Source: Prolixibacteraceae bacterium (GTDB taxonomy: Bacteria > Bacteroidota > Bacteroidia > Bacteroidales > Prolixibacteraceae). From it: 64,000 bases of DNA. The notes below the pieces were generated by a model that saw nothing but the letters and a program-made list of their open reading frames with translations, did not search any database and had not been told where the DNA came from. Of the stretch, positions 2-64,000 are shown in pieces. Numbering within the stretch: position 1 is the stretch's first letter; each line of letters opens with the position of its first letter. A program made the translations under genes and the position numbers. Location: the NCBI GenBank assembly GCA_003506435.1, contig DOAQ01000043.1, positions 18,737 through 82,736 on the forward strand, written 5' to 3'.

Positions 2-991
2 TCTTTCTCCCCCTCTTTCGGAGGGGGAAAGGGGGAGGCTTCTCACGCCATCGTTATTGACTTAGGCGGAACAATTATCAAGATAGGTCTCTTGCTTGGA
101 ACCCAGCTCATCGACCGCACGGAAGTAGTTGCACAATCGGCTTCCGGATTGAAATCGCAGCTTCCTGAACTGGAAACCACCATCGATAAAATGCTTTGTA
201 CCAATCGGCTATCGGCAAAAGATGTGTTGGGCGTTGGATTTTCGTTTGCCGGGCTGGTCGATTCTGTGGAAAACCGGATTTTATCAACAAATCAAAAATA
301 CGACGATGGACCGGATACTGATCTGGTTGGCTGGGCGATGAGGAGATGGAACTGGCCGCTTTTTGCCATGAACGATGCCCGCATGGCCTTGCTTGGCGAA
401 TGGCAGCATGGGGCAGGGCAGGGGTGTTCCGATCTGGTGATGGTCACTTTGGGCACCGGAATCGGAACAGCAGTTTTAATTGGAGGTGAGTTGTTGATTG
501 GAAAACATTTCCAGGCCGGAAACCTGGGTGGACACTTTGTTGTGAACCACAAAGGGACGGTATGTACCTGCGGAAATGTGGGTTGTGTGGAAGCAGAAGC
601 TTCAACCTGGCGGCTGCCTTCGTTGTTGAAAGAGCATCCGGAGTTCTCAAAAAGTCCGATACATGATGAAAAAGTTTTGGATTTTAAGGCTCTTTTTCAG
701 TATGCAGAAAAGAACGATCGGGTTGCTGCCGAAGTGCTGGACCATTGCCTTTCGGCGTGGGCTGCCGGAATCATTACCATGATTCATGCGTTTGATCCGG
801 AAATGATTATACTAAGCGGCGGGCTCATGAAAAGTTCAGCCATTATTTTGCCTGCCCTTCAGAAAAAAATAGATAGACTGGCCTGGACACCCTGGGGAAA
901 AGTGAAACTGGTTGAAGCTAAATTTCCGGATTCAGCAGCTTTATACGGAGCTGACTGGCTGGTGCGGTCGAAATTGAAAACTGGGAAATAA
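2..991 (+). CDS. ROK family sugar kinase or regulator, probably 5'-incomplete at the window edge
   Basis: The frame is open from nt 2. The N-terminal 'AIVIDLGGT' ATP-binding motif (nt ~47-73) lies upstream of the first listed start (TTG at 92). The ROK zinc motif 'GHFVVNHKGTVCTCGNVGCVEAEAS' is present. Confidence 0.8.
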   Translation, partial: SFSPSFGGGKGEASHAIVIDLGGTIIKIGLLLGTQLIDRTEVVAQSASGLKSQLPELETTIDKMLCTNRLSAKDVLGVGFSFAGLVDSVENRILSTNQKYDDGPDTDLVGWAMRRWNWPLFAMNDARMALLGEWQHGAGQGCSDLVMVTLGTGIGTAVLIGGELLIGKHFQAGNLGGHFVVNHKGTVCTCGNVGCVEAEASTWRLPSLLKEHPEFSKSPIHDEKVLDFKALFQYAEKNDRVAAEVLDHCLSAWAAGIITMIHAFDPEMIILSGGLMKSSAIILPALQKKIDRLAWTPWGKVKLVEAKFPDSAALYGADWLVRSKLKTGK

Positions 992-1012
992 CAGAACAGA
1001 TATATTAGGAAA

Positions 1013-2791
1013 ATGGAGAAAAGTTATTTAAAAAGATCTTCAAAATTCAACAACTTTCCTGTTGTTGAAATAAAGACGGAGGGATGGAAAGTTGAAAACG
1101 AATGGGAAGCTATTTGTGCCCGATTGAACAAAGAAATATCGCTCATAAAAGGAAAGAAAAAACGGGTGGTCATTGAAACCTATCAGGGAGTGATCCATGA
1201 GGAATTAATTACTAATTTGAAAAATGGATTGGATCATACTCATTTTATTCATGCTGAAGAATACATGTTGCCTGAAGATGAGATCAAAAAATTGGTGTTC
1301 CCGGATGTGACCAACGACCGGATTTTTGGTTTTTTGACACGTCTGACCATGGGTGCCTTTTTCGATACTGAAAAGGTAAAAACTATTCAAAATAAAATAG
1401 GAGCAGTAGAAGAAGGAATAATTGTAATTTACGGAAGCGGCGCTGCTCTGTTGTGCCCGGAACCTGATCTGCTGGTCTATGCTGATATGGCTCGTTGGGA
1501 GATACAACTTCGGATGCGTCAGCATTTGGTCGATAACCTGGGAGTTAAAAACCGCGAAACCGCCGACTGGATGTTACTCTACAAGCAAGGGTTCTTTGTT
1601 GACTGGCGTGTGTGTGACCGCTTGAAAAAGCAACTATTCGATCAATGGGATTTTGTGCTGGATACCAATAAAGCCGGTCGACCCAAATTGGTAGAGGGAA
1701 AGGCGGTTCTCGAAGGATTGAAAATCGCAAGTCAGCGACCATTTAGTGTGGTTCCGTTTTTTGATCCCGGGCCATGGGGCGGGCAGTGGATGAAAGAAGT
1801 ATGTAATCTGGACCCTGAATCACCAAACTATGCGTGGTGTTTCAACTGTGTTCCCGAAGAAAATAGTTTGTTGCTGAAATTTGGTGAAGATGTGGTTGAA
1901 ATTCCTTCTGTCAACTTGGTATTTCGCCATCCGCGCGAATTGCTTGGCGATCCGGTTCACGGACGTTTTGGTGATGAATTTCCCATCCGTTTCGACTTCC
2001 TCGATACAATGCAAGGCGGCCATCTGAGTTTGCAGGTACATCCGCTTACCGAATACATTCAGGAAAAATTTGGCATGCATTATACGCAGGACGAAAGTTA
2101 TTACATGATGGACGCAGAAGATGATGCAATCGTCTATCTCGGACTGAAAGAAGGAGTCTGCCCTACTGATATGATGCGTGAGCTGGAAGAAGCCCAGGCC
2201 GGTGGCCCTTCGTTCGATGCGGAAAAGCATGTGCAAACCTGGCCGGTAAAGAAACATGATCATGTGCTGATTCCTGCCGGTACGGTACATTGTTCAGGGA
2301 AAAATAGTATGGTACTCGAAATCAGTGCAACCCCGTATATTTTTACCTTTAAACTGTGGGACTGGGGACGGCTTGGAATGGATGGAAAACCCCGTCCGAT
2401 CAATATCGAACACGGAAAAAATGTCATTCAATGGGATCGTACAACAGAATGGACACGAAACAATCTGGTGAGCCGGATTGAAAAAATTGCAGAAGGCGAT
2501 GGTTGGTTGGAAGAACGCACCGGGCTGCACGAACGCGAATTTATTGAAACCCGGCGGCATTGGTTCACGAAAAAAACAGAACACCATACACGGGGAGGAG
2601 TTCATGTTATTTGCCTGGTTGAAGGTGACGAAGTGATTGTTGAAAGCCCTTCAAGTGCTTTTGACCCATTTGTGGTGCATTATGCTGAAGTATTTATTGT
2701 ACCGGCTTCGGTTGGGGAATATACCATTCGTCCGTATGGCGCAGGCGCAGGTCAAAAATGTGCAACACTGAGAGGACTTGTGAGATTTTAA
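1013..2791 (+). CDS. Class I mannose-6-phosphate isomerase-like cupin protein with a long N-terminal domain
   Basis: 592 aa. It carries 'GGHLSLQVHP', 'QDESYYM' and 'VLIPAGTVHCSG', which resemble type I PMI metal and active-site motifs. Confidence 0.6.
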   Translation: MEKSYLKRSSKFNNFPVVEIKTEGWKVENEWEAICARLNKEISLIKGKKKRVVIETYQGVIHEELITNLKNGLDHTHFIHAEEYMLPEDEIKKLVFPDVTNDRIFGFLTRLTMGAFFDTEKVKTIQNKIGAVEEGIIVIYGSGAALLCPEPDLLVYADMARWEIQLRMRQHLVDNLGVKNRETADWMLLYKQGFFVDWRVCDRLKKQLFDQWDFVLDTNKAGRPKLVEGKAVLEGLKIASQRPFSVVPFFDPGPWGGQWMKEVCNLDPESPNYAWCFNCVPEENSLLLKFGEDVVEIPSVNLVFRHPRELLGDPVHGRFGDEFPIRFDFLDTMQGGHLSLQVHPLTEYIQEKFGMHYTQDESYYMMDAEDDAIVYLGLKEGVCPTDMMRELEEAQAGGPSFDAEKHVQTWPVKKHDHVLIPAGTVHCSGKNSMVLEISATPYIFTFKLWDWGRLGMDGKPRPINIEHGKNVIQWDRTTEWTRNNLVSRIEKIAEGDGWLEERTGLHEREFIETRRHWFTKKTEHHTRGGVHVICLVEGDEVIVESPSSAFDPFVVHYAEVFIVPASVGEYTIRPYGAGAGQKCATLRGLVRF

Positions 2792-2799
2792 ACCTTTGT

Positions 2800-3582
2800 A
2801 TGATGGAATTTAATCCCGGATTTGATATAAAACCGACTGTAAACCCGATGGGGTTTCTTTATGGAAATGATGTATTTGGACCGCAGGTAGAGAACCGCAG
2901 GTTGGACGATATTCGCAAAAGTTTGCGCAATCCCGGCTGTGAAGGGCCGGAAACAGTGTATTCCATCGCAATGGATGTAGGAAAAAAGGAACATTTGAAA
3001 CGACTGGAAAAATTACACCTGTTGTTCGGGGTCGTTACTTATGCTGCCGGAAGGCTGGGCGATGAGCCGGTGCGTAGTCAGGGACACATTCATAAAGTGT
3101 CGCCGCTGAGCGGCTGGTCAACTCCAGAGGTTTACGAAATATGGTCGGGCAGGGCTATCATTTATATGCAGGAAACGGCAAAAGATAACCCTGGACACTG
3201 TTTTGCTGTGGAAGCTGGTCCGGGCGAAGTAGTTGTGGTGCCTCCGTATTGGGCACATGTCACCGTTAGCGCTGATGCGGAGCAACCGCTTACCTTTGGC
3301 GCATGGTGCGATCGCGCTTATGGGTTTCAGTACGATGATGTACGGGCGCACAACGGTCTAGCCTGGTTTCCGATAATTCAGGAAGACGGAACAATCGGGT
3401 GGTTACAAAATCCAGCATACAATGAGGGGGCGTTGCAAATTAAATCACCGTCTGATTATTCATTGCTGGGTATCGAAAAAGGAAAACCCATTTATACCCA
3501 GTTTGAAGAAGATGAATCGCGTTTTTTGTTTGTTCCGCATCCGGCCTTAAAAAGAACGGAGTGGAAGAGTTTTATTCCGTGA
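2800..3582 (+). CDS. Cupin-type glucose-6-phosphate isomerase family protein
   Basis: I start it at the ATG at 2800, just after the upstream stop. 'SQGHIHK...EVYEIWSG...VVVPPYWAH' is a cupin His/Glu metal-site pattern typical of archaeal-type PGI. Confidence 0.55.
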   Translation: MMEFNPGFDIKPTVNPMGFLYGNDVFGPQVENRRLDDIRKSLRNPGCEGPETVYSIAMDVGKKEHLKRLEKLHLLFGVVTYAAGRLGDEPVRSQGHIHKVSPLSGWSTPEVYEIWSGRAIIYMQETAKDNPGHCFAVEAGPGEVVVVPPYWAHVTVSADAEQPLTFGAWCDRAYGFQYDDVRAHNGLAWFPIIQEDGTIGWLQNPAYNEGALQIKSPSDYSLLGIEKGKPIYTQFEEDESRFLFVPHPALKRTEWKSFIP

Positions 3583-3788
3583 CAGTTTTTCACTGCCGCA
3601 ACTTTCTTCGGTTTCCCTTCCTTTTTTAGGTGATGTGGTTCCGGTGCAACAGGGACGGGTTGGTTTGTAAAATTTGCATTACCCAACAAAAAACTCCCTG
3701 AAAATCTTTGAATTATACCGGAATAGTTTTATTTTTGCCGCGCATTTTATAAATATAATGTCTAACTTATTAATTTTTTGATTATTAC

Positions 3789-5768
3789 ATGACAGAATTA
3801 CAAAACGAGAACCTTGAACCAAAGGAAGAACTCGAAACACAGGAAACCGCTCTGGTAACCGAAGAAGTTGTTGCTGAAGAAGCAGAAGTAAAAGAAGAAG
3901 CAGTTGCTGAAGAAGTAGCTGTAGATGAGGTTGAAGAAGAAGCTGCTGAAGAGGTAGTTGCTGAAAAACCTAAAAAAGCAGGCAAAGCAAAAAAAACAGT
4001 TGAAGTTGCCGCAGAATTTGACTGGAGCGCATTCGAAAAAGGGGATACCACCAGCGCTGCACACACCGAACTCGAAAACCTTTACAACAAAACCCTGACA
4101 ACTGTTCAGGAAAAAGAAGTTGTTAACGGAACCGTAATTTCGATGAACAAACGCGAAGTTGTTATCGACATCGGTTACAAATCGGACGGTATTGTTAGTT
4201 TGAACGAATTCCGCTACAATCCGGAACTGAAAGTGGGCGACAAAGTAGAAATCTACATTGAAAGCCTTGAAGACATTAAAGGACAGATGATTCTTTCGCA
4301 CAAAAAAGCACGTGCAATGCAATCGTGGGATCGCGTTAACCTGGCCCTCGACAACGACGAAATCATTAAAGGGTACATCAAATGCCGCACAAAAGGTGGT
4401 ATGATTGTCGATGTATTCGGAATTGAAGCGTTCTTGCCTGGTTCTCAGATCGACGTGAAACCGATCCGCGACTATGATGTATTTGTTGGAAAAACCATGG
4501 AATTCAAAGTGGTTAAAATCAACCATGAATTCCGTAACGTAGTTGTTTCGCATAAAGCGCTCATCGAAGCCGAACTGGAACAACAGAAAAAAGACATCAT
4601 TTCGAAACTCGAAAAAGGACAGGTACTTGAAGGTACTGTTAAAAATATTACTTCGTACGGTGTATTCATCGACCTTGGCGGTGTTGACGGATTGATCCAC
4701 ATCACCGACTTAAGCTGGGGCCGTATTTCGCATCCGAACGAAATCGTTGAATTAGACCAGAAACTGAACGTGGTTATCCTCGACTTCGATGATGACAAAA
4801 AACGTATCGCCCTTGGTTTGAAACAACTTACTCCTCACCCATGGGATAATTTAAGCGCCGGACTGAAAGTTGGCGACAGCGTGAAAGGTAAAGTGGTTGT
4901 TATGGCCGACTACGGTGCATTTGTTGAAATTGCTCCCGGAGTAGAAGGTTTAATCCACGTTTCTGAAATGAGCTGGTCGCAGCACCTGCGCAGCGCACAG
5001 GACTTCCTGAAAGTGGGAGAAGAAGTAGAAGCACAGATTCTTACATTGGACCGCGACGAGCGTAAAATGTCGTTGGGTATCAAACAACTTCGTCAGGATC
5101 CATGGGGAGACATCGACAACTTGTTTGGCCTTGGAAGCAAACACAAAGCAACGGTTCGCAACTTCACCAACTTTGGTGTATTTGTTGAAATTCAGGAAGG
5201 TGTTGACGGCCTGATCCATATTTCGGATTTGAGCTGGACGAAAAAAATCAAACATCCGTCAGAATTTACTTCAATCGGAGCTGAAATTGATGTAGTTGTT
5301 CTCGATATCGATAAAGAAAACCGTCGTTTGAGCCTTGGGCACAAACAGTTGGAAGAAAATCCATGGGATGTATTCGAAACTATTTTCTCGGTTGATTCAA
5401 TTCATGAAGGAACAGTAGTTGAGTTGTTCGACAAAGGCGCAACCATTGCTCTTCCATACGGTGTTGAAGGTTTTGCAACTCCGCGTCACCTTGTGAAAGA
5501 AGACGGATCGCAGGCTCAACTGGAAGAAAAATTGGATTTCAAAGTAATCGAATTCTCGAAAGCAGCAAAACGCATCATCCTTTCACACTCACGTGTGTTC
5601 GAAGATGAGAAAAAATCGGAAGAAGCTGCTGCCAAAAAAGTTCAGGCAAAAACAACCAAGAAAGTTGTAAAACAAGTGAAAGAAAACACGATGGAAAAAA
5701 CAACTCTTGGCGATATTTCTGAATTAGCAGCTCTGAAATCGCAGATGGAAGCTGACGAGAAAAAGTAA
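3789..5768 (+). CDS. rpsA: 30S ribosomal protein S1 with an acidic low-complexity N-terminal extension
   Basis: 659 aa with six S1/OB repeats ('G.V....V...G.FV.....EGL.H.SE.SW' recurs). The first ~80 aa are an E/V/A-rich extension. Confidence 0.95.
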   Translation: MTELQNENLEPKEELETQETALVTEEVVAEEAEVKEEAVAEEVAVDEVEEEAAEEVVAEKPKKAGKAKKTVEVAAEFDWSAFEKGDTTSAAHTELENLYNKTLTTVQEKEVVNGTVISMNKREVVIDIGYKSDGIVSLNEFRYNPELKVGDKVEIYIESLEDIKGQMILSHKKARAMQSWDRVNLALDNDEIIKGYIKCRTKGGMIVDVFGIEAFLPGSQIDVKPIRDYDVFVGKTMEFKVVKINHEFRNVVVSHKALIEAELEQQKKDIISKLEKGQVLEGTVKNITSYGVFIDLGGVDGLIHITDLSWGRISHPNEIVELDQKLNVVILDFDDDKKRIALGLKQLTPHPWDNLSAGLKVGDSVKGKVVVMADYGAFVEIAPGVEGLIHVSEMSWSQHLRSAQDFLKVGEEVEAQILTLDRDERKMSLGIKQLRQDPWGDIDNLFGLGSKHKATVRNFTNFGVFVEIQEGVDGLIHISDLSWTKKIKHPSEFTSIGAEIDVVVLDIDKENRRLSLGHKQLEENPWDVFETIFSVDSIHEGTVVELFDKGATIALPYGVEGFATPRHLVKEDGSQAQLEEKLDFKVIEFSKAAKRIILSHSRVFEDEKKSEEAAAKKVQAKTTKKVVKQVKENTMEKTTLGDISELAALKSQMEADEKK

Positions 5769-5816
5769 TTTGAAAAAGGGTATGGACAAATCCATAAGAA
5801 TTTCATAAATTGCATT

Positions 5817-6182
5817 ATGGATTTTGAAATTATAAAACAGGCAGATCACACCAGGGTGAAAGTCCTTAGCGATAAGCTGGACACCAACAATGCTCCTGAT
5901 TTGAAATCGGAGCTGGTAGTGACCACCGGGAACGGTGAACGGAACATCATTTTGGATGTCAGTAAATGTCGCTATTGCGACTCGTCGGGACTGAGCGCTA
6001 TTTTGGTAGCCAACAGGCTTTGCGAAGATGCCGGCGGAACATTTATACTGACAGGTCTGCAACCCGATGTGGAACAGATTATCCGCATTTCGATGCTGCA
6101 TACGGTGCTGAGTATTACCAAAACACCCGAAGAAGCCGAAACGCTGATGAAAGACAGAAGCGAACAATTGCCAAACGCATAG
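5817..6182 (+). CDS. STAS domain protein (anti-sigma-factor antagonist-like)
   Basis: 121 aa. 'ILDVSKCRYCDSSGLSAILVANR' matches the STAS/SpoIIAA phospho-serine loop pattern. Confidence 0.7.
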   Translation: MDFEIIKQADHTRVKVLSDKLDTNNAPDLKSELVVTTGNGERNIILDVSKCRYCDSSGLSAILVANRLCEDAGGTFILTGLQPDVEQIIRISMLHTVLSITKTPEEAETLMKDRSEQLPNA

Positions 6183-6189
6183 TTGCTAA

Positions 6190-7116
6190 ATGTCTTTTGA
6201 TCTGACCATATTAGGTAGTAATTCAGCGTTACCTACATCAAACAGATATCCAACCGCTCAGGTATTAACCGTACCTGGGCGGTTTTTTTTGATTGATTGC
6301 GGGGAAGGAACGCAGATGCAACTCCGTAAAAACCGCATTAGCTTATTGAAAATTGATCACATCCTGATCTCGCATACTCACGGCGATCATATTTTTGGAC
6401 TCATTGGCTTAATTTCAAGCATGGTTTTACTGGGCCGCAAGAAAGATCTCCATATCTTTTCGCATTCCGAACTGCAAAAGTTCATCCAGTTTCAACTGGA
6501 TTTCTTGTACCAGCAAGAGGCGCCTTTTCGCCTGGTATTTCATCCGCTGAGTTTCAAGTCGCCGCAAATAATTTATCAGGATAAAAAAGTCAGCATCACC
6601 TCTTTTCCTCTGAAACACCGTATTGCAACCTGTGGTTTTATTTTTCAGGAAATAGTCAAATTACCCAAGCTGAAAAAAGAAAAACTGGAAGAATACAAAA
6701 TTCCGATCCGCGACCGGCAAAAAATAAAGGAAGGCTCCGATTTTGTTTTATCCGACGGAAAGATTATCCCCAACAGCGAATTGGTAATTCCTGCCAACAA
6801 ACCGTGCAGTTATGCTTTTTGTAGTGATACAGCCTATCACGAAGAAATTATTGATACTATCAGAGGAACCGATCTATTGTACCACGAGGCAACATTTGCT
6901 GAAGAACATAAAATTTTGGCGGGTGAAACGTTTCATTCAACCGGAAAGCAGGCCGCAACAATTGCCCAAAAAGCGGGAGTGAAAAAGCTGATTCTTGGTC
7001 ATTTCTCAGCCCGTTATAAAACCAGTTCAATCATTTTGGAAGAAGCCCGCGAAATTTTTCCTGAAACGTATGCTGTCGAAGATGGCAATGTATATAAAAT
7101 AACCGGAGAAGAATAA
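6190..7116 (+). CDS. rnz: Ribonuclease Z (tRNA 3' endonuclease, metallo-beta-lactamase fold)
   Basis: 308 aa. Contains 'LILGSNSALP', 'FLIDCGEGTQ' and the 'ISHTHGDH' HxHxDH motif, with a C-terminal 'LGHFSARY'. Confidence 0.85.
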   Translation: MSFDLTILGSNSALPTSNRYPTAQVLTVPGRFFLIDCGEGTQMQLRKNRISLLKIDHILISHTHGDHIFGLIGLISSMVLLGRKKDLHIFSHSELQKFIQFQLDFLYQQEAPFRLVFHPLSFKSPQIIYQDKKVSITSFPLKHRIATCGFIFQEIVKLPKLKKEKLEEYKIPIRDRQKIKEGSDFVLSDGKIIPNSELVIPANKPCSYAFCSDTAYHEEIIDTIRGTDLLYHEATFAEEHKILAGETFHSTGKQAATIAQKAGVKKLILGHFSARYKTSSIILEEAREIFPETYAVEDGNVYKITGEE

Positions 7117-7144
7117 AGAACACATGAAAGACCAAACGCATCTT

Positions 7145-8497
7145 TTAATTGTATAATGCATTCGAAATCAGCATGTAAATAATCAGTCCGAGAATATCGT
7201 TCATGGTGGTGATAAACGGACCGGTTGCTAATGCAGGGTCGATTTTTAATTTATTCAGGACCAAGGGGATCAGCGTACCAAACGTAGATGCAAAAAGAAT
7301 GACAATAAACAATGAAAGGCTTACCGACAAGGTCAGGTTCATGCTTTCGTCCCTGAAAAAATTATAGTTGAAGATAAGTGTTGAGAAAAGAAGTGCCGTA
7401 ATCAGTGCAACCGAAAGTTCCTTTAGTAATTTCTGGCTCATTGAGTCGAAATCGCGACTACCGCTGGCAATGCTCTGTACCACGATTGACGACGATTGTA
7501 CCCCTACATTTCCGGCCATAGCGGCAATCAAGGGAATGAAAAACGCCACTTCCGGTATTTTTTTTAGCGATTCCTCGTGTGAACCCAGTACCAGGGCGCC
7601 GGTGATTCCTCCCAGCAATCCGATGAACAACCAGGGAATACGAGCCCTGGTGAGCTGCCATACCTTATCGCCGGATTCCACGTCGCCTACTAACCCCGAA
7701 ACCATCTGGTAATCTTTTTCCGCTTCTTCGCGAATTACGTCCACCACGTCATCAATGGTGATCCGGCCTTGTAATCGCCCGAGCTGATCAACAACAGGAA
7801 GGGCAACCATGTCGTATCGTTCCATAATCTGGGCAACTTCTTCCTGATCGGCATTTATGCTCACGGAATGGACTTCTTCTGTAACCAGATTTTTTATGAT
7901 GGCCTGGGTTGGTTGCAGTATTAGCTTTTTCAACGAAAGAAGCCCTTTCAGTATAAAATCGTCGTCAACTACATACACGTAGTAGATTTCATCAATATTC
8001 TCGGCTTGTTTGCTGATTTCTTTCAAACAGTTTTGCACGGTCCAGTTTTCGTTCACGGCAACCAGCTCTTTGGCCATAATCCCCCCGGCGGTATCTTCAT
8101 CGTAAACCAGCAGATCGGCAATGTCGCTGGCTTGTTCCTTGTCTTTTATTTCCTGAAGAACGGCTTCCTGCAGATCTTCTTCCATATCGGCAATCACGTC
8201 GGCAGCATCGTCCGAGTTCATGTGCTCGATAAAGCGGGAAGCAATAATTTCGGGAGGAAGCGCTTTCAGGAAACGTTTCCGGTCATCTTCCGGAATTTCA
8301 ACCAACACATCCGAAGCCTTTTCTTCGTCGAGCAGCATATAGAGGTATTTGGCCTCTTCCAGATTCAGCTCTTCCATAATTTCGGCAATATCCGTTGCAT
8401 GAAGGTCTTCAATCAGGTCAAGTACTTCCTGACCGGAGTTTTCTCCGATAAGCGCAATCAGATTGTCGATAAATTCCCTGGTAAGTTCTGATTTCAT
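7145..8497 (-). CDS. mgtE: Magnesium transporter MgtE
   Basis: 450 aa with an acidic N-domain, tandem CBS region ('ALPVVDQLGRLQGRITIDDVVDVI') and a C-terminal 5-TM MgtE domain. Confidence 0.9.
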   Translation of the reverse strand: MKSELTREFIDNLIALIGENSGQEVLDLIEDLHATDIAEIMEELNLEEAKYLYMLLDEEKASDVLVEIPEDDRKRFLKALPPEIIASRFIEHMNSDDAADVIADMEEDLQEAVLQEIKDKEQASDIADLLVYDEDTAGGIMAKELVAVNENWTVQNCLKEISKQAENIDEIYYVYVVDDDFILKGLLSLKKLILQPTQAIIKNLVTEEVHSVSINADQEEVAQIMERYDMVALPVVDQLGRLQGRITIDDVVDVIREEAEKDYQMVSGLVGDVESGDKVWQLTRARIPWLFIGLLGGITGALVLGSHEESLKKIPEVAFFIPLIAAMAGNVGVQSSSIVVQSIASGSRDFDSMSQKLLKELSVALITALLFSTLIFNYNFFRDESMNLTLSVSLSLFIVILFASTFGTLIPLVLNKLKIDPALATGPFITTMNDILGLIIYMLISNALYN

Positions 8498-59880: not shown

Positions 59881-61068
59881 ATGCACCACGTTAAATTAGC
59901 CGACAATATTTATTATTTGGGGTACAACGATCGCCGCACGCATTTATTTGAGAATATTTGGCCTATTCCGCATGGGGTTTCGTATAATTCATACTTGATA
60001 GATGATGAGAAAATTGCTTTGGTAGATACCGTCGAACGTCAGTTTATCGACGACTATCTCGATGACATTCATTCCATCATTGGTGACAGAAAAGTCGATT
60101 ATTTGATCATAAATCACATGGAACCCGACCATTCGGGAGCTTTAAAAGCAATCGTGGCCAAGTATCCTGATATTATTTTGGTTGGCAATAAAAAGACGTT
60201 CGGGTTTGTGGAAAGCTTTTATATGAAGCCGGTAAATACGCACGAAGTATATGATGGTCATGTTTTGGAACTTGGAAAAACCCGGGTTCAGTTTCAGGCA
60301 ATACCCATGGTACACTGGCCCGAAACCATGGTGTCTTTCGAAGAAACGAACCAAATTTTATTTTCGGGTGATGCTTTTGGCAGCTACGGAACGTTGGACG
60401 GCGGTATCTTTGACGATGAAATTAATCTCGACTTTTACGAGATTGAAGTCATGCGGTATTTCACCAATATTGTCGGGAAATATTGTCCGCATACCCAGCG
60501 TGCCATTAAAAAACTGGCAGGTCTCGATATTAAAATGATTGCTGCTACACACGGTCCGATCTGGCGCAGCGACCTGAACTGGGTATTGAGCCGTTACGAC
60601 AAATGGAGTTCCTATACTTTCGACAATGGGGTGATCATCGTTTACGGCTCGATGTACGGAAACACGCAGAAAATGGCTGAAGTAATTGCCCGCCAGCTTT
60701 CTGTTCGCGGAATCAGGGACATCCGGGTGTATGATGCTTCGAAAACGCATTCTTCATATATTATTAATGATATTTTCAAGTACAAAGGTTTTATTGTCGG
60801 AAGTTGTGCGTACAACAATTCACTTTTCCCGAATGTCGAAACCTTATTGTCGACCATCGAGCACATGGGTATAAAAGATCATTATCTGGGCGTATTTGGC
60901 AATTTTTCGTGGAATGGAGGAGGCGTGAAAAACCTGATGAAATTTGCCGAAACAATTAACTGGGATTTGGTTTACGAACCGGTTGAAGAAAAAGGCGCTC
61001 TCAAAAAAGACAAGTTTGAACAATGTATTGCACTTGCCAATGCCATGGCTGATAAGTTGCTAGGGTGA
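59881..61068 (+). CDS. FprA-family A-type flavoprotein (flavodiiron; MBL + flavodoxin domains)
   Basis: 395 aa. 'SYNSYLI', 'INHMEPDHSG' and a C-terminal flavodoxin-like 'IVYGSMYGNT'. Confidence 0.85.
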   Translation: MHHVKLADNIYYLGYNDRRTHLFENIWPIPHGVSYNSYLIDDEKIALVDTVERQFIDDYLDDIHSIIGDRKVDYLIINHMEPDHSGALKAIVAKYPDIILVGNKKTFGFVESFYMKPVNTHEVYDGHVLELGKTRVQFQAIPMVHWPETMVSFEETNQILFSGDAFGSYGTLDGGIFDDEINLDFYEIEVMRYFTNIVGKYCPHTQRAIKKLAGLDIKMIAATHGPIWRSDLNWVLSRYDKWSSYTFDNGVIIVYGSMYGNTQKMAEVIARQLSVRGIRDIRVYDASKTHSSYIINDIFKYKGFIVGSCAYNNSLFPNVETLLSTIEHMGIKDHYLGVFGNFSWNGGGVKNLMKFAETINWDLVYEPVEEKGALKKDKFEQCIALANAMADKLLG

Positions 61069-61092
61069 AGAGGTTTTTAACCGCATTTTGCC

Positions 61093-61293
61093 ACAATCAT
61101 TTTATTGTTGGAGATTACGTTCCTTCTATAGGTTCTACAATATGTGATAATACATTTTGAATTTATAGAAAATCTCTGTTTGATTATTTCGGACAGAGAT
61201 TTTTGTTTTAACAATGATTTTATTGTTAAAAAATTTGACAATGGTTTTATTGTTATTTATATTTGGCAATAAATTCATTGTTAAAAGTATTGT
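61093..61293 (+). promoter_or_regulatory. Four operator-like palindromes ACAAT-N6-ATTGT upstream of the ATPase pair
   Basis: Sites are ACAATcattttATTGT (61093-61108), ACAATgattttATTGT (61211-61226), ACAATggttttATTGT (61238-61253) and gCAATaaattcATTGT (61266-61281). A further ATTGT (61289-61293) abuts the ATG. The function is inferred. Confidence 0.4.
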
Positions 61294-62463
61294 ATGAAAA
61301 AATGGAAACATCCTCACACAATAACCGGAGATGCAGTTTCCGGGGAAAGTTATTTAAGAAGGCCAAAAATTAATGATTTGTTCTGGCATTTTGTTGAGAA
61401 GGGATCTGATGTCCTTTTTACTGCACCCCGCAGGGTTGGAAAAACTTCTATAATGAAAGATATTGAAGCTAATACTCCTAAGGATTATTGGTGCATATAT
61501 AAGGATGTTGAAGGGGCAACTAATAAAGATCAATTCTATCAGAGAATTTTTGAGATGCTTATTGAACGGTTGAGTTCATTGAAGAAAGCAAAAACATTAT
61601 TTCGAAAATGGATCAAAAAATATGGTATCGAAAAGATTGGGAAAGATGGCTTGAAAATCGGCAGATACCCTTCAGATTATTACAGTGAGGTGGTTAATTT
61701 ATTGGAAGAGTTAGCGAAACAAGATATTGCTATTGTCTTACTGATAGATGAGTTTGTCGAAGTTATTCTTAATTTGAAAAATGCAGGGAAAGTTGAAGAT
61801 GCAATTAGTCTTCTCCATGAATTGAGAGAAATCAGGCATAAACCAGAGTTGAAAAAAATAATTTTTGTGTATGCGGGTTCTATTGGGTTACATTCTGTTG
61901 TTAAAGAAATAGGACGTCCAACACTTATAAACGACATAGAACTTCTTCCGATAGATAAGCTTAGTGAACCGGAGTCAAAGCAATTGATACGACAACTAAC
62001 AGCAGAAGCAACAATTCAGTATTCTGAAGAACTGGAAGATTATCTTATTTTAAAAATAGAACATCTTCTACCATACTTCATTCAGTTAATGATTCAGGAA
62101 ATTGACCTAATTGCTTTTAAAAGAGGACAAGGGACAGCCGACATGGAAATCATTAACGAAGCATTCAATAGCGTGGTGAAAAATACAGCTAATTTTGATG
62201 ACTGGATAAAACGATTAAGGGACTACTTAGGCGGCAACTTCCAGTTTGTGAATCAGGTGTTGATCCATTGCGCGCATAAGGGGAAAATAAATATTCAGGA
62301 AGTATACGACTTAGCCGTTGATGCGGGAAAAACAGACGTTTATAAAGATCTACTTGATGAACTTGAACGTGATGGATATTTAATCGAAGACAGAGGGAGT
62401 TATCGTTTTATTTCTCCATTTATAAAATCGTATTGGTTACACAAAAATCCTGTACTCAAATGA
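61294..62463 (+). CDS. ATP-binding protein (Arch_ATPase/STAND-like P-loop NTPase with a C-terminal wHTH-like region)
   Basis: 389 aa. Walker A 'APRRVGKTS' and Walker B 'VLLIDEF', with a C-terminal 'ELERDGYLIEDRGSYRFISPF' wHTH-like segment. Confidence 0.7.
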   Translation: MKKWKHPHTITGDAVSGESYLRRPKINDLFWHFVEKGSDVLFTAPRRVGKTSIMKDIEANTPKDYWCIYKDVEGATNKDQFYQRIFEMLIERLSSLKKAKTLFRKWIKKYGIEKIGKDGLKIGRYPSDYYSEVVNLLEELAKQDIAIVLLIDEFVEVILNLKNAGKVEDAISLLHELREIRHKPELKKIIFVYAGSIGLHSVVKEIGRPTLINDIELLPIDKLSEPESKQLIRQLTAEATIQYSEELEDYLILKIEHLLPYFIQLMIQEIDLIAFKRGQGTADMEIINEAFNSVVKNTANFDDWIKRLRDYLGGNFQFVNQVLIHCAHKGKINIQEVYDLAVDAGKTDVYKDLLDELERDGYLIEDRGSYRFISPFIKSYWLHKNPVLK

Positions 62464-64000
62464 ATGATCATAAATCTTTAAGTTTTCAATATTATCAGTC
62501 CGCAAACGAAGATGATTGTGGGCTTATAAAAAGAAATTTCATTGTCAGGAAAAAGGAACTTGGATTGATTCTGGCAAATCTGGAAAAAGAGCCGATGAAG
62601 AAATCGGTACAACATTTCCTGATTTTAGGAAGACGAGGGAGTGGAAAATCGACCTTATTAAAAAGAATAGAATGTGAAGCTACTGAGAATGAAAAGTTGA
62701 AAAATAAATTCGTTGTTGTTAATCTGGCAGAAGAGCAAGGAAGTATTCATCGTTTATTTGACTTATGGGAAGAAGTAATTAAAGCATTGAGAGGCTTTGG
62801 TTATGACGATTTACCTGACACTGACTCTTTGGATATTCCTGAAGATTTTGGGGAATATTCCCGGCAACTATATAAATCGATACAAACTTCATTAAAAAAG
62901 AACTCAAGAAAGCTATTACTACTTGTTGATAATATTGATAGAATCTTTTTGTCGTTTAAAAATGACGCTCAATTGTTGCGTGAGATACTTTTAAATTACG
63001 ACGATATTAAAATCATTGGAGGAAGCACAGAAATGAGTGAGCATTTCTGGCAGCACAGTTCTCCTTTTTATCAGTTCTTCAGAATTATCCGATTGGAAGC
63101 TTTAAGTTCAAAAGAAATAAAAAAGTTACTCATGGCTTGGGCTTTCCACATGGAGGAAAAAGGGATTAAAGATTTTATCAGGAAAAACCCCGGGCAATTG
63201 GAAGCTATACGGATTTTAACCGATGGGTTGCCCCGTACTTTGCGTTTTTTCATTGATTTATTAATTAACCGGCCTCAGCAAAACGGATATGCCTATATAA
63301 AGAAAATAATGGATACAGTAACTCCGCTGTATCAGGAACGTTTGGGGGCGCTGACTCCCATTGGGCAAAAAATTGTGATGAAACTTGCATTCTTCTGGGA
63401 TGCTGTTAGTATAAAAGATTTGGTTAAGCCAACGAAAACTGAAAGCAAATTACTATCTGCAATTCTTAAAAAGTTAAATGATATAGGAATTGTTGATAAG
63501 ATTGAAACTGGGACAAAAAATCATTTATACCGATTGTCGGAACGTTTCTTTAATATGTGGTTAATTGTAACCCAGGGAAATCCTGTTGACAAGCGAAAAG
63601 CAAGATGGTTGACTGTATTTTTAGAAAACTGGTATAACGAAAGAGATATAAAATTGTTGATCAGGCAGCATTTGAACGATTTGGAAAAGTGTGATAAAGA
63701 CCTTGACCATTTAACCCTTATGACAAAGGCCATTGCCCAGTCAAGGTACACAAGTTTAAAAGAAAGAGAATTGCTGATAACGAAAAACTTGTCTGTTGAA
63801 TCTTTAAATGCGGAGCTAAAATCAAGTCTTCCTCTCACTTCTTCTGAAATTTTTGAGAAAATCATACGATTAATTAAGGAAGAGAAGTTCGATATGGCTT
63901 TATTAGAAGTCCAGCACATTCCGAATGAAGTTGGTGGAGATAAAGATATTTTATTAGGTCTTATTTACAGACAATTAAAAAATAATTCAGAAGCGGAAAC
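62460..64000 (+). CDS. Second P-loop ATPase with wHTH and TPR-like C-terminal region; 3'-incomplete (runs off the window)
   Basis: It is absent from the ORF track because it has no stop. The ATG at 62460 overlaps the upstream TGA (ATGA). I read the frame as open to nt 64000. Walker A 'GRRGSGKST' and Walker B 'LLLVDNID'. wHTH-like 'LNDIGIVDKIETGTKNHLYRLSERFF', then helical repeats ('GLIYRQLKNNSEAE'). Confidence 0.65.
   Translation, partial: MNDHKSLSFQYYQSANEDDCGLIKRNFIVRKKELGLILANLEKEPMKKSVQHFLILGRRGSGKSTLLKRIECEATENEKLKNKFVVVNLAEEQGSIHRLFDLWEEVIKALRGFGYDDLPDTDSLDIPEDFGEYSRQLYKSIQTSLKKNSRKLLLLVDNIDRIFLSFKNDAQLLREILLNYDDIKIIGGSTEMSEHFWQHSSPFYQFFRIIRLEALSSKEIKKLLMAWAFHMEEKGIKDFIRKNPGQLEAIRILTDGLPRTLRFFIDLLINRPQQNGYAYIKKIMDTVTPLYQERLGALTPIGQKIVMKLAFFWDAVSIKDLVKPTKTESKLLSAILKKLNDIGIVDKIETGTKNHLYRLSERFFNMWLIVTQGNPVDKRKARWLTVFLENWYNERDIKLLIRQHLNDLEKCDKDLDHLTLMTKAIAQSRYTSLKERELLITKNLSVESLNAELKSSLPLTSSEIFEKIIRLIKEEKFDMALLEVQHIPNEVGGDKDILLGLIYRQLKNNSEAE

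What the first reader, a model, noticed from the sequence alone, without database searches (positions are those of the whole stretch)
61294..64000. Translationally coupled pair of STAND/AAA-like ATPases in an AT-rich patch; the second carries wHTH plus TPR-like repeats and is cut by the window
Gene 1 (389 aa) has Walker A 'APRRVGKTS', Walker B 'LLIDEF' and a wHTH-like tail. Gene 2 starts at an ATG overlapping gene 1's TGA (ATGA at 62460-62463). It is open for at least 513 codons to the window end. It has 'GRRGSGKST', 'LLLVDNID', a wHTH-like segment and then helical TPR-like repeats.

The ORF track does not list gene 2. A sampled line of gene 1 is about 33% GC.

P-loop NTPase + wHTH + repeat-sensor architecture is the hallmark of prokaryotic STAND/Avs-like immune sensors. 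However, no effector domain is visible in the part I can see.
Basis: partly seen in the sequence, partly recalled or inferred. Interest (0 to 1): 0.6.

Follow-up and report, generated by a model that had tools for sequence, protein, structure and literature searches.

The report
Self-regulated mobile pair of STAND-like ATPases
Two overlapping genes for related ATP-driven switch proteins, one carrying a repeat "sensor", form a horizontally mobile cassette that brings its own triple DNA operator and is conserved across bacterial phyla; it looks like an immune-receptor pair, but it has no recognisable killing domain and its function is unproven.

Summary
Gene 1 (61294-62463, 389 aa) overlaps gene 2 at an ATGA. 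Gene 2 is 865 aa once completed from the contig.

Gene 1 is an ATPase_2-type P-loop NTPase with a winged helix. Gene 2 is a remote paralogue of that module. It adds a DNA-binding-type winged helix, a 96-nt-period TPR array and a conserved TPR-like cap. Neither protein has an enzymatic effector.

In 80 loci across Bacteroidota and Chlorobiota, 77 keep the pair intact; the other three end at a contig edge. No third gene is conserved. The cassette was not found in four same-genus genomes and occurs in about 2% of sampled phylum genomes.

The main new result concerns the palindromes upstream of gene 1. Three of them, 27-28 nt apart, overlap the promoter. The same array recurs in 74 of 79 family loci (two or more elements each), and on a Moraxella plasmid (three sites) and a Clostridium plasmid (two). 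Half-sites change symmetrically between loci. The phased array is unique in this genome.

My reading is an autoregulated, self-contained STAND sensor/partner cassette, most likely a conflict or defence module. However, PADLOC finds nothing, the neighbours are not defence genes, and the output is unknown.

The scan holds no note of this pair on other DNA.

The parts
61093..61108 (+). Distal palindrome O0 (ACAAT-N6-ATTGT). It starts 4 nt after the last base (61089) that aligns with same-genus genomes.
61169..61203 (+). Perfect 11-bp-stem hairpin between O0 and the proximal operator array. It lies inside the inserted DNA. Role not tested.
   Evidence: I11
61211..61226 (+). Operator O1, ACAATGATTTTATTGT, upstream of the -35-like hexamer.
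61235..61265 (+). Promoter-like site. TTGACA (61235-61240), a 17-nt spacer, then TATATT (61258-63), which extends to TATATTTG (the Bacteroidetes TAnnTTTG type). It scores 11 of 12, the best in the region. O2 fills the spacer.
   Evidence: sequence. The Bacteroidetes consensus is from my own knowledge.
61238..61253 (+). Operator O2, ACAATGGTTTTATTGT, 27 nt after O1, between the -35 and -10 elements.
61266..61281 (+). Operator O3, GCAATAAATTCATTGT, 28 nt after O2, at the predicted transcription start or leader. It ends 12 nt before the ATG.
61294..62463 (+). Gene 1, 389 aa: short ATPase_2-type NTPase (P-loop domain, helical domain, winged helix) with no sensor repeats. Walker A is at 61423-61449, Walker B LLIDEF (D152-E153) at 61738-61755, and the winged helix at about 62281-62445.
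62460..64000 (+). Gene 2, 865 aa, cut by the window; it continues to window-equivalent 65057. Walker A is at 62628-62654. Walker B is D157-N158 (from 62928). The DGLPRT (GxP-like) motif is at 63222-63239. The TPR array begins at about 63948 and runs to about 64619. The conserved cap domain is at 64605-65054.
63345..63560 (+). Winged helix-turn-helix of gene 2 (residues 296-367). K330 (63447-63449) lies at the start of the predicted recognition helix. Of all columns in both proteins, this one tracks operator half-site position 2 best.

Best explanation
This is a self-contained, horizontally mobile, autoregulated two-gene cassette. It encodes two paralogous STAND/ATPase_2-type NTPases.

Shown. 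Gene 1 is a bare nucleotide-binding module (P-loop, helical domain, winged helix) with a canonical Walker B (DE). Gene 2 has the same module with a DN Walker B, followed by a variable TPR array and a conserved TPR-like cap. The two genes overlap and always travel together. They carry a promoter embedded in three palindromes phased 27-28 nt apart. That phased array is the only one in the genome.

Inferred. A cassette protein binds the palindromes as dimers and represses its own operon. The most likely reader is the winged helix of gene 2. The TPR and cap region of gene 2 senses a protein or peptide ligand, probably from an invading element. Ligand binding drives nucleotide-dependent co-assembly with the gene 1 protein, as in sensor/helper NLR pairs.

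The output is unknown. With no enzymatic effector, it would have to be DNA binding, transcriptional control, nucleotide consumption or recruitment of a host factor.
For: Anatomy. The gene 1 model has pLDDT 89. Its best folds are the ATPase_2 proteins 2fna and 2qen, followed by ORC/Cdc6, Avs3 and a plant resistosome. Gene 1 and the gene 2 N-terminus align profile to profile over 293 columns (91% probability, E 1e-6).

Pairing: gene 2 lies immediately downstream in 77 of 80 loci, and the other 3 are cut by contig ends. No third gene is conserved; the next largest cluster occurs in 5 loci. Start and stop overlap in 60 of 77 loci, and the gap is 20 nt or less in 15 more.

Mobility: not found in 4 same-genus genomes. 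A match at E <= 1e-40 in 7 of 400 sampled phylum genomes, G000 apart. The site is empty in same-genus genomes. GC is 0.28-0.37 against 0.42 for the genome. Relatives at 23-30% identity sit on Clostridium, Moraxella and Segatella plasmids, again followed by a partner gene. On the Clostridium and Moraxella plasmids the partner is 35-36% identical to gene 2 over the nucleotide-binding module and has the cap. On Segatella it is a weak match (22%, E 5e-7) covering the Walker B to winged-helix part only.

Operators: 201 elements in 79 loci against about 7 in shuffles (maximum 21) and 12 in a distal control. Spacing is 28 nt in 97 of 123 adjacent pairs. Positions cluster at -77, -49 and -21. The Moraxella plasmid carries the same triple array; the Clostridium plasmid carries two sites 27 nt apart. 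The phased array is unique in the 6.03-Mb genome. The best promoter-like site has O2 in its spacer.

Reader: gene 2 K330 is the top column among all aligned columns of both proteins for half-site position 2. Phi is 0.88 against 0.65 for the next column, and all 49 loci with A at that position have K330.

Sensor variability: gene 2 ranges from about 590 to 1160 aa through its TPR number. The local array has 4.8 copies of a 96-nt unit.
Against: No effector domain was found. The cap matches only TPR-like solenoids, the best being 6mfv at Z 8.0, which is within the range common for helical repeats.

PADLOC gives no hit for gene 1 and only P-loop-level hits for gene 2. The 148 immediate neighbours show no enrichment of defence, integrase or transposase genes. 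By the criteria of Lee et al. 2026 (bioRxiv 10.64898/2026.01.04.697583), defence neighbours or a defence effector, this clade would not be called defence-associated. In that study only 198 of 589 STAND clades are.

There was no hit in 50,697 phage records.

The K330 link rests on 4-5 independent changes (sign test p 0.25). DNA binding, repression, ligand sensing and hetero-oligomerisation are all inferred, not shown.
Confidence: 0.45

Rival explanations
1. A non-immune signal-transduction switch of the MalT/LAL type. The STAND protein with its TPR sensor binds a cellular or environmental ligand and acts as a transcription factor. Its targets would be its own promoter and perhaps single sites elsewhere. 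Gene 1 would be a co-regulator.
For: The architecture is a nucleotide-binding module plus TPR with a DNA-binding-type winged helix, and the operators overlap the promoter. The neighbours are ordinary metabolic genes. Most STAND clades are not defence-associated (paper 10.64898/2026.01.04.697583, section 4). The cap's best fold match is the TPR end of the STAND protein in PDB entry 6mfv.
Against: No neighbouring operon is conserved that it could regulate. The phased array occurs only at its own promoter. Single 5+5 sites elsewhere are few (33), and the one with the same T-rich spacer lies inside a coding region. There is no LuxR-type or other C-terminal DNA-binding domain. A sparse cross-phylum distribution, with plasmid-borne members, is unusual for a physiological regulator.
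Confidence: 0.25
2. A selfish addiction or maintenance module. It would resemble a toxin-antitoxin pair in logic: tightly autoregulated by operator binding, and harmful to the cell when the balance of the two products is disturbed.
For: It is a solo two-gene cassette with overlapping genes and a multi-operator autoregulated promoter. It is scattered between unrelated housekeeping genes and also sits on plasmids.
Against: Both proteins are large NTPases with no known toxin fold. The variable TPR sensor is not explained. No toxicity data exist.
Confidence: 0.1
3. An ORC/Cdc6-like initiator pair. It would bind iteron-like repeats to replicate or partition a small mobile element.
For: Gene 1's fold matches ORC/Cdc6 after the ATPase_2 proteins. 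The phased repeats lie next to the gene in AT-rich DNA, as archaeal origins lie next to orc1/cdc6 (that comparison is from my own knowledge). Relatives occur on plasmids.
Against: The TIGR02928 orc1/cdc6 model scores 18 bits against a cut-off of 181. The repeats are palindromes that overlap the promoter. Chromosomal copies are solo, with no helicase, integrase, relaxase or other element genes nearby. The TPR sensor is not explained.
Confidence: 0.05

Closest known systems
ATPase_2 (PF01637) 'archaeal ATPase' family, with solved examples SSO1545 (2fna) and PAB2304 (2qen)
   Same: Gene 1 passes the Pfam cut-off (33.5 against 33.2 bits). Its model superposes best on these two proteins (Foldseek E 4e-13 and 7e-12, TM 0.61-0.68). 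Both have a P-loop AAA+-like domain, a helical domain and a C-terminal winged helix.
   Different: The margin over the cut-off is tiny. The family has no established function. The obligatory partner gene and the operator array seen here are not described for those proteins, as far as the papers I could search show.
Avs/AVAST and bacterial NLR-like STAND defence proteins
   Same: P-loop STAND-type module, then a winged helix, then a TPR sensor. Avs3 (8dgc) is among the fold matches of gene 1. Distribution is patchy and horizontally transferred.
   Different: Avs proteins are single polypeptides with an N-terminal nuclease, protease or other effector. Here there are two NTPase genes and no effector. 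No PADLOC Avs or NLR model matches.
Predicted two-gene system in which both genes encode a novel STAND NTPase (nSTAND2; Kaur et al. 2021, eLife 10:e70394, Figure 6C)
   Same: A counter-invader system was proposed from two adjacent genes that each encode a STAND NTPase.
   Different: It is a different NTPase clade. Gene 2 is nearest nSTAND_NTPase5 but falls below its cut-off. That system was noted in connection with GT4 effector domains. No operator array is mentioned in the passages I read.
MalT/LAL-type STAND transcription regulators (my own knowledge). The STAND-TPR protein of PDB entry 6mfv is the fold match; its relation to MalT is also from my own knowledge.
   Same: A nucleotide-binding module plus a TPR-like sensor that controls transcription. 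The best structural match of the gene 2 cap is the TPR end of 6mfv (Z 8.0, 141 residues aligned).
   Different: There is no C-terminal LuxR helix-turn-helix and no adjacent regulated operon. There is a second NTPase gene. DNA reading is assigned to the winged helix inside the module.
Paired sensor/helper NLRs of plants (my own knowledge)
   Same: Two adjacent paralogous NLR-type genes. One carries the recognition part and the other is a plainer partner.
   Different: This is an analogy only. No homology beyond the STAND fold was shown (a wheat resistosome, 9h2l, is among the fold matches), and no interaction was shown.

Membership tests
STAND NTPases (Leipe et al. 2004; definition from my own knowledge) | P-loop NTPase with Walker A and Walker B | tested here: met
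   Gene 1 has an invariant GK[TS] and D152-E153. Gene 2 has an invariant GSGKS and D157-N158-x-D160.
STAND NTPases | Helical domain with a GxP-type motif, followed by a winged helix after the NTPase core | tested here: met
   The gene 1 model shows the P-loop domain, a helical domain and a winged helix. Gene 2 has an invariant D255-G256-x-P258-R259. It aligns to gene 1 through the winged helix and has weak ArsR-type HTH hits at residues 315-361.
STAND NTPases | C-terminal repeat (sensor) domain | tested here: met
   Gene 2 matches TPR_1 at 95.6 bits, with repeats over residues 525-720. Gene 1 has none.
nSTAND_NTPase5 (PF25199) | Score at or above the Pfam gathering cut-off (34 bits) | tested here: not met
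   The score is 31.7 bits for the window-truncated protein and 30.0 for the full-length one. The match covers profile positions 11-69 of 145. The family is, however, listed among the precomputed domains of most homologues, so this is a near neighbour.
ATPase_2 (PF01637) | Pfam gathering cut-off (33.2 bits) and the fold of solved members | tested here: met
   Gene 1 scores 33.5 bits, and its best folds are 2fna and 2qen. Gene 2 scores 27.5-28.8 bits, below the cut-off.
Avs/AVAST | An effector domain (nuclease, protease, SIR2 and the like) fused to the STAND-TPR protein, and a match to Avs profiles | tested here: not met
   Pfam finds no effector. The C-terminal domain is TPR-like. No Avs model appears among the PADLOC hits.
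Any system in PADLOC-DB v2.0.0 | A significant full-length profile match | tested here: not met
   Gene 1 has 0 hits. Gene 2's best hit is mad8 at 9e-6, over the P-loop region only. DefenseFinder and later databases could not be run.
Defence-island association | Enrichment of known defence genes among the neighbours | tested here: not met
   In 148 neighbours, the most frequent families are adh_short, rhodanese, radical SAM and sigma-70. PADLOC hits are sporadic. Only distant plasmid relatives sit near a QatD gene of a Qat system, or near DUF262 and WYL genes.
MalT/LAL regulators | C-terminal LuxR-type helix-turn-helix | tested here: not met
   No such Pfam hit. The C-terminus is a TPR-like cap.
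Orc1/Cdc6 initiators | TIGR02928 at its cut-off (181 bits) | tested here: not met
   18.4 bits. Fold similarity only.
Autoregulated operon with a multi-operator promoter | Sequence-specific binding of a cassette protein to the palindromes, and repression | not testable with these tools
   Supported indirectly by conservation, phasing, uniqueness and promoter overlap, and by the covariation of K330 with half-site position 2.

The most novel reading that the evidence does not exclude
This is an undescribed class of bacterial NLR-like system: a sensor/partner pair of STAND NTPases with no enzymatic effector. Its own winged helix is a sequence-specific DNA reader that co-evolves with a triple, 28-nt-phased operator (gene 2 K330 with half-site position 2). 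Detection of an invader would then be converted directly into DNA binding or transcriptional control, rather than into nuclease, NADase or protease activity. The cassette moves as one unit (operators, gene 1, gene 2) across at least four phyla.
Probability: 0.3. Interest if true: 0.75.

Novelty: new variant of a known kind. Interest (0 to 1): 0.6.

Why it matters
STAND/NLR proteins are central immune switches in all domains of life. Almost all characterised bacterial ones carry a fused enzymatic effector. A widespread cassette of two paralogous STAND modules with no effector would show a different way of wiring such switches, whether or not the function turns out to be defence.

It also offers a rare, directly testable pair: a protein residue and an operator base that appear to co-evolve inside a STAND winged helix. 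And it would give a first functional handle on the large, uncharacterised ATPase_2 family.

Tried and rejected
- Phage collection: no tblastn hit for gene 1.
- Fused gene 1-gene 2 forms: none found among longer proteins. This is weak evidence.
- Profile searches of gene 1, the gene 2 N-terminus and the cap against PDB sequences gave nothing meaningful.
- Foldseek on the cap gave no match at E <= 0.001. VIA-wide gave only TPR-like solenoids at Z of 8 or less.
- Literature searches for nSTAND5, for PF01637 with defence, and for STAND/winged helix/TPR/autoregulation found no description of this pair.
- A permissive palindrome score (5 of 6 pairs) was useless in AT-rich DNA: 311 hits against 112 in shuffles. 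I replaced it with a core pattern.
- Plain mutual information between operator type and protein columns was dominated by clade signal, so only the tree-aware result is used. No residue could be tied to half-site positions 5 or 6.
- An RNA-hairpin reading of the palindromes was considered, because T-G combinations are frequent. I set it aside because the first two elements lie upstream of the predicted start and overlap the promoter hexamers.
- The one extra genomic site with the same T-rich spacer (C10:30207) lies inside a coding region and is taken as chance.
Full report
**Observation**

Gene 1 occupies 61294-62463 on the + strand. It encodes 389 aa with APRRVGKTS and LLIDEF. The ATG of gene 2 at 62460 overlaps gene 1's stop as ATGA, and the frame stays open to the window end.

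The window is G000:C50:18737-82736. On the contig, gene 2 ends at window-equivalent 65057, giving 865 aa.

GC is 0.28-0.37 from about 61000 to 65250, against 0.41-0.49 in the flanks and 0.421 for the genome.

The TPR matches lie at residues 525-720, beyond the window end.

**What the proteins are**

- **Gene 1, profile matches.** It just passes Pfam ATPase_2 (33.5 against 33.2 bits) and has no NCBIfam or PADLOC hit.
- **Gene 1, structure.** Its AlphaFold model (pLDDT 89.4, pTM 0.87) shows a P-loop domain, a helical domain and a winged helix.
  - The best matches are the archaeal ATPase_2 proteins SSO1545 (2fna) and PAB2304 (2qen).
  - ORC/Cdc6, Avs3 and a wheat resistosome follow.
- **Gene 1, conservation.** In 28 homologues the Walker A, D152-E153, an AGSxG motif, R208 and the C-terminal DGY...Y.F.SP..W segment are invariant.
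- **Gene 2, domains.**
  - The N-terminal NTPase matches AAA_22 above its cut-off. nSTAND_NTPase5, ATPase_2, AAA_16 and NACHT match below theirs.
  - A winged helix follows, with weak ArsR-type hits at residues 315-361.
  - Next is a TPR array (TPR_1, 95.6 bits).
  - The last 150 aa are unassigned by sequence.
- **Gene 2, conservation.** In 30 homologues the N-terminal 470 aa are 60% identical per column. GSGKS, D157-N158-x-D160, DGxPR (a GxP-like motif) and the ERFFNxW wing are invariant.
- **The two modules are paralogues.** The gene 1 family aligns with the gene 2 N-terminal module over 293 columns (hhalign probability 91%, E 1e-6). One module has a DE Walker B and the other DN.
- **The cap of gene 2.** The C-terminal domain is conserved across the family (36 sequences; W47, Q81, F89 and E128 invariant). 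It folds with pLDDT 89.3 into nine helices.
  - Foldseek gives nothing at E <= 0.001.
  - VIA-wide gives only TPR-like solenoids. The best is the TPR end of the STAND protein 6mfv (Z 8.0, rmsd 4.0, 141 residues aligned), within the range common for helical repeats.
- **TPR array at DNA level.** It consists of 4.8 copies of a 96-nt unit at 77% identity.

So the completed pair contains no recognisable enzymatic effector.

**The pair is a conserved, mobile cassette**

- **Family size.** Gene 1 has more than 150 homologues of about 390 aa. Gene 2 has more than 700, ranging from 700 to 1160 aa.
- **Co-occurrence.** A scan of one genome per species found 253 relatives, and 80 loci were fetched. They span Chitinophagaceae, Saprospiraceae, Flavobacterium, Chryseobacterium, Bacteroidales, Prolixibacteraceae, Balneolales, Chlorobiota and one bin labelled Gammaproteobacteria.
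  - In 77 of the 80 a gene 2 homologue lies directly downstream on the same strand.
  - The other three loci end at a contig edge.
- **No third gene.** Clustering all neighbouring ORFs found none; the next largest cluster occurs in five loci.
- **Coupling.** The predicted gene 2 start overlaps the end of gene 1 in 60 of 77 loci and lies within 20 nt in 15 more.
- **Sensor length.** The distance between the N-terminal module and the cap varies from almost nothing to about 1.4 kb, so the number of TPRs is the variable part.
- **Prevalence.**
  - Not found in four same-genus genomes; only weak paralogue hits elsewhere in the family.
  - Found in 7 of 400 sampled genomes of the phylum at E <= 1e-40, one copy each.
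- **Insertion site.** In same-genus genomes, homology stops at 61056-61089. In two of them it resumes at 68278. This genome therefore carries extra DNA here: the pair plus uxaA and uxaB.
- **Plasmid relatives.** They occur at 23-30% identity on Clostridium, Moraxella, Segatella and other plasmids. In the three I inspected, an overlapping partner gene follows.
  - The Clostridium (530 aa) and Moraxella (699 aa) partners are 35-36% identical to gene 2 over the nucleotide-binding module, and both have the cap.
  - The Segatella partner (298 aa) matches only weakly (22%, E 5e-7), from the Walker B region through the winged helix.

**The cis element**

I tested whether they belong to the cassette.

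- **Frequency in the family.** In the 120 nt before gene 1 in 79 loci, the core C[AT][ACG][TC]-N6-[AG][TCG][AT]G occurs 201 times.
  - Shuffles give about 7 (maximum 21). A distal control gives 12.
  - 74 loci have two or more elements.
- **Phasing and position.** Adjacent elements are 28 nt apart in 97 of 123 cases and 27-29 nt apart in 113. Positions cluster at -77, -49 and -21 (sequences).
- **Symmetric variation.** Half-sites differ between loci in a symmetric way: ACAAT/ATTGT, ACAGT/ACTGT, ACAAC/GTTGT, ACTAT/ATAGT and GCAAT/ATTGC. This is what a dimeric reader co-evolving with its site would produce.
- **Other phyla.** The Moraxella osloensis plasmid copy has three ACTAT-N6-ATAGT sites 27 nt apart. 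The Clostridium tagluense copy has two GACAA-N8-TTGTC-type sites 27 nt apart. The Segatella copy has a different upstream sequence.
- **Uniqueness in this genome.** A pair of such palindromes spaced 26-30 nt occurs only at this locus. The exact T-rich-spacer form occurs four times, three of them here. The fourth lies inside a coding region.
- **Promoter overlap.** The best sigma-70-like site of the region (11 of 12) is TTGACA at 61235, a 17-nt spacer, then TATATT at 61258, which extends to TATATTTG. O2 fills the spacer and O3 covers the predicted start.

This is the layout of an autorepressed promoter. Repression itself is inferred.

**Which protein reads the operators**

- Gene 1's winged helix has an acidic third helix (consensus DYMDLxDxL).
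- Gene 2's has Ser, Lys and Gln in the corresponding helix and a basic wing (KKNHLYR).
- On a tree of 66 cassettes, half-site position 2 (A against C or G) changes five times.
- Of all aligned columns of both proteins, gene 2 K330, at the start of the predicted recognition helix, tracks it best. Phi is 0.88 against 0.65 for the next column.
  - All 49 loci with A at that position have Lys.
  - 14 of the 17 others have Asn or another residue.
- Among four independent pairs, K330 goes the same way in about three and never the other way. The sign test gives p 0.25, because there are too few pairs.

This is a lead, not a result.

**Function**

For a conflict or defence role:
- the NLR-like architecture;
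- the variable sensor;
- the sparse, cross-phylum and partly plasmid-borne distribution, with low GC;
- the self-containment, with autoregulation of itself only;
- the position of distant relatives next to a QatD gene of a Qat system, or near DUF262 and WYL genes.

Against it:
- there is no effector;
- PADLOC finds nothing;
- there is no phage hit;
- 148 immediate neighbours from about 70 loci are ordinary genes with only sporadic PADLOC hits.

Lee et al. 2026 (bioRxiv 10.64898/2026.01.04.697583, section 4) call a STAND clade defence-associated when it has defence neighbours or a defence effector. Only 198 of their 589 clades qualify, and this family would fail both tests.

A plain transcription-factor reading is weakened because there is no regulon other than the cassette itself. 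A prior prediction of a two-gene system with two STAND NTPases exists for nSTAND2 (Kaur et al. 2021, PMC8195603). I found no description of this family or of its operator array.

**Verdict**

The anatomy is well supported: a mobile, autoregulated pair of paralogous STAND/ATPase_2 NTPases with a TPR sensor. The biological role is open.

| Reading | Confidence |
|---|---|
| Sensor/partner conflict module | 0.45 |
| Non-immune STAND regulator | 0.25 |
| Addiction-like module | 0.10 |
| ORC-like replication module | 0.05 |

The remainder is left for something not considered here.

Noticed in passing
window 61090-68277 (beyond 64000: L002 3238-7514): In same-genus genomes G003 and G002, homology to the window stops about 20 nt past the flavoprotein gene's stop codon (at 61089). 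About 46 nt later it resumes with the homologue of window 68278 onwards (a 179-aa ATPase and a GDSL-type lipase). This genome therefore also has uxaA and uxaB, of native GC, at this site. G001 and G004 diverge at the same point. It is a variable hot spot.
   Followed up: partly
L002 4307-4333 (window-equivalent 65070-65096): A GC-rich hairpin (GCCACTG...CAGTGGC) followed by a T-rich run lies between the convergent gene 2 and uxaA. It is probably a bidirectional terminator that closes the cassette.
   Followed up: no
window 62928-62939 (gene 2 residues 157-160): The Walker B of gene 2 is D-N-x-D, invariant across 30 homologues. Gene 1 keeps D-E. The pair may combine a hydrolysing and a poorly hydrolysing module, as some heteromeric AAA+ assemblies do.
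   Followed up: partly
L002 3374-3831 (window-equivalent 64137-64594): The TPR array is a 96-nt (32-aa) tandem repeat, 4.8 copies at 77% identity. The number of repeats differs widely between homologues; the Clostridium plasmid homologue has none.
   Followed up: partly
L099 (Moraxella osloensis plasmid pNP7-2) 1-7295; L098 (Segatella copri plasmid) 737-8042: Distant homologous pairs on plasmids sit in defence-like surroundings. One follows a QatD gene of a Qat anti-phage system, a protein kinase and a transposase. The other follows DUF262 and WYL-domain genes.
   Followed up: partly
L086 and L045: In these loci the gene 2 homologue appears as two consecutive ORFs (631+311 aa and 693+255 aa). 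This may be a frameshift or a split within the TPR region.
   Followed up: no
window 61294-61390 (gene 1 residues 1-32): A conserved N-terminal extension precedes the P-loop domain (W4, P7, T9, G12, Y20 and R23 invariant or nearly so; consensus W.xPxTITGDAATGxxYLRR). It has no assigned role.
   Followed up: no
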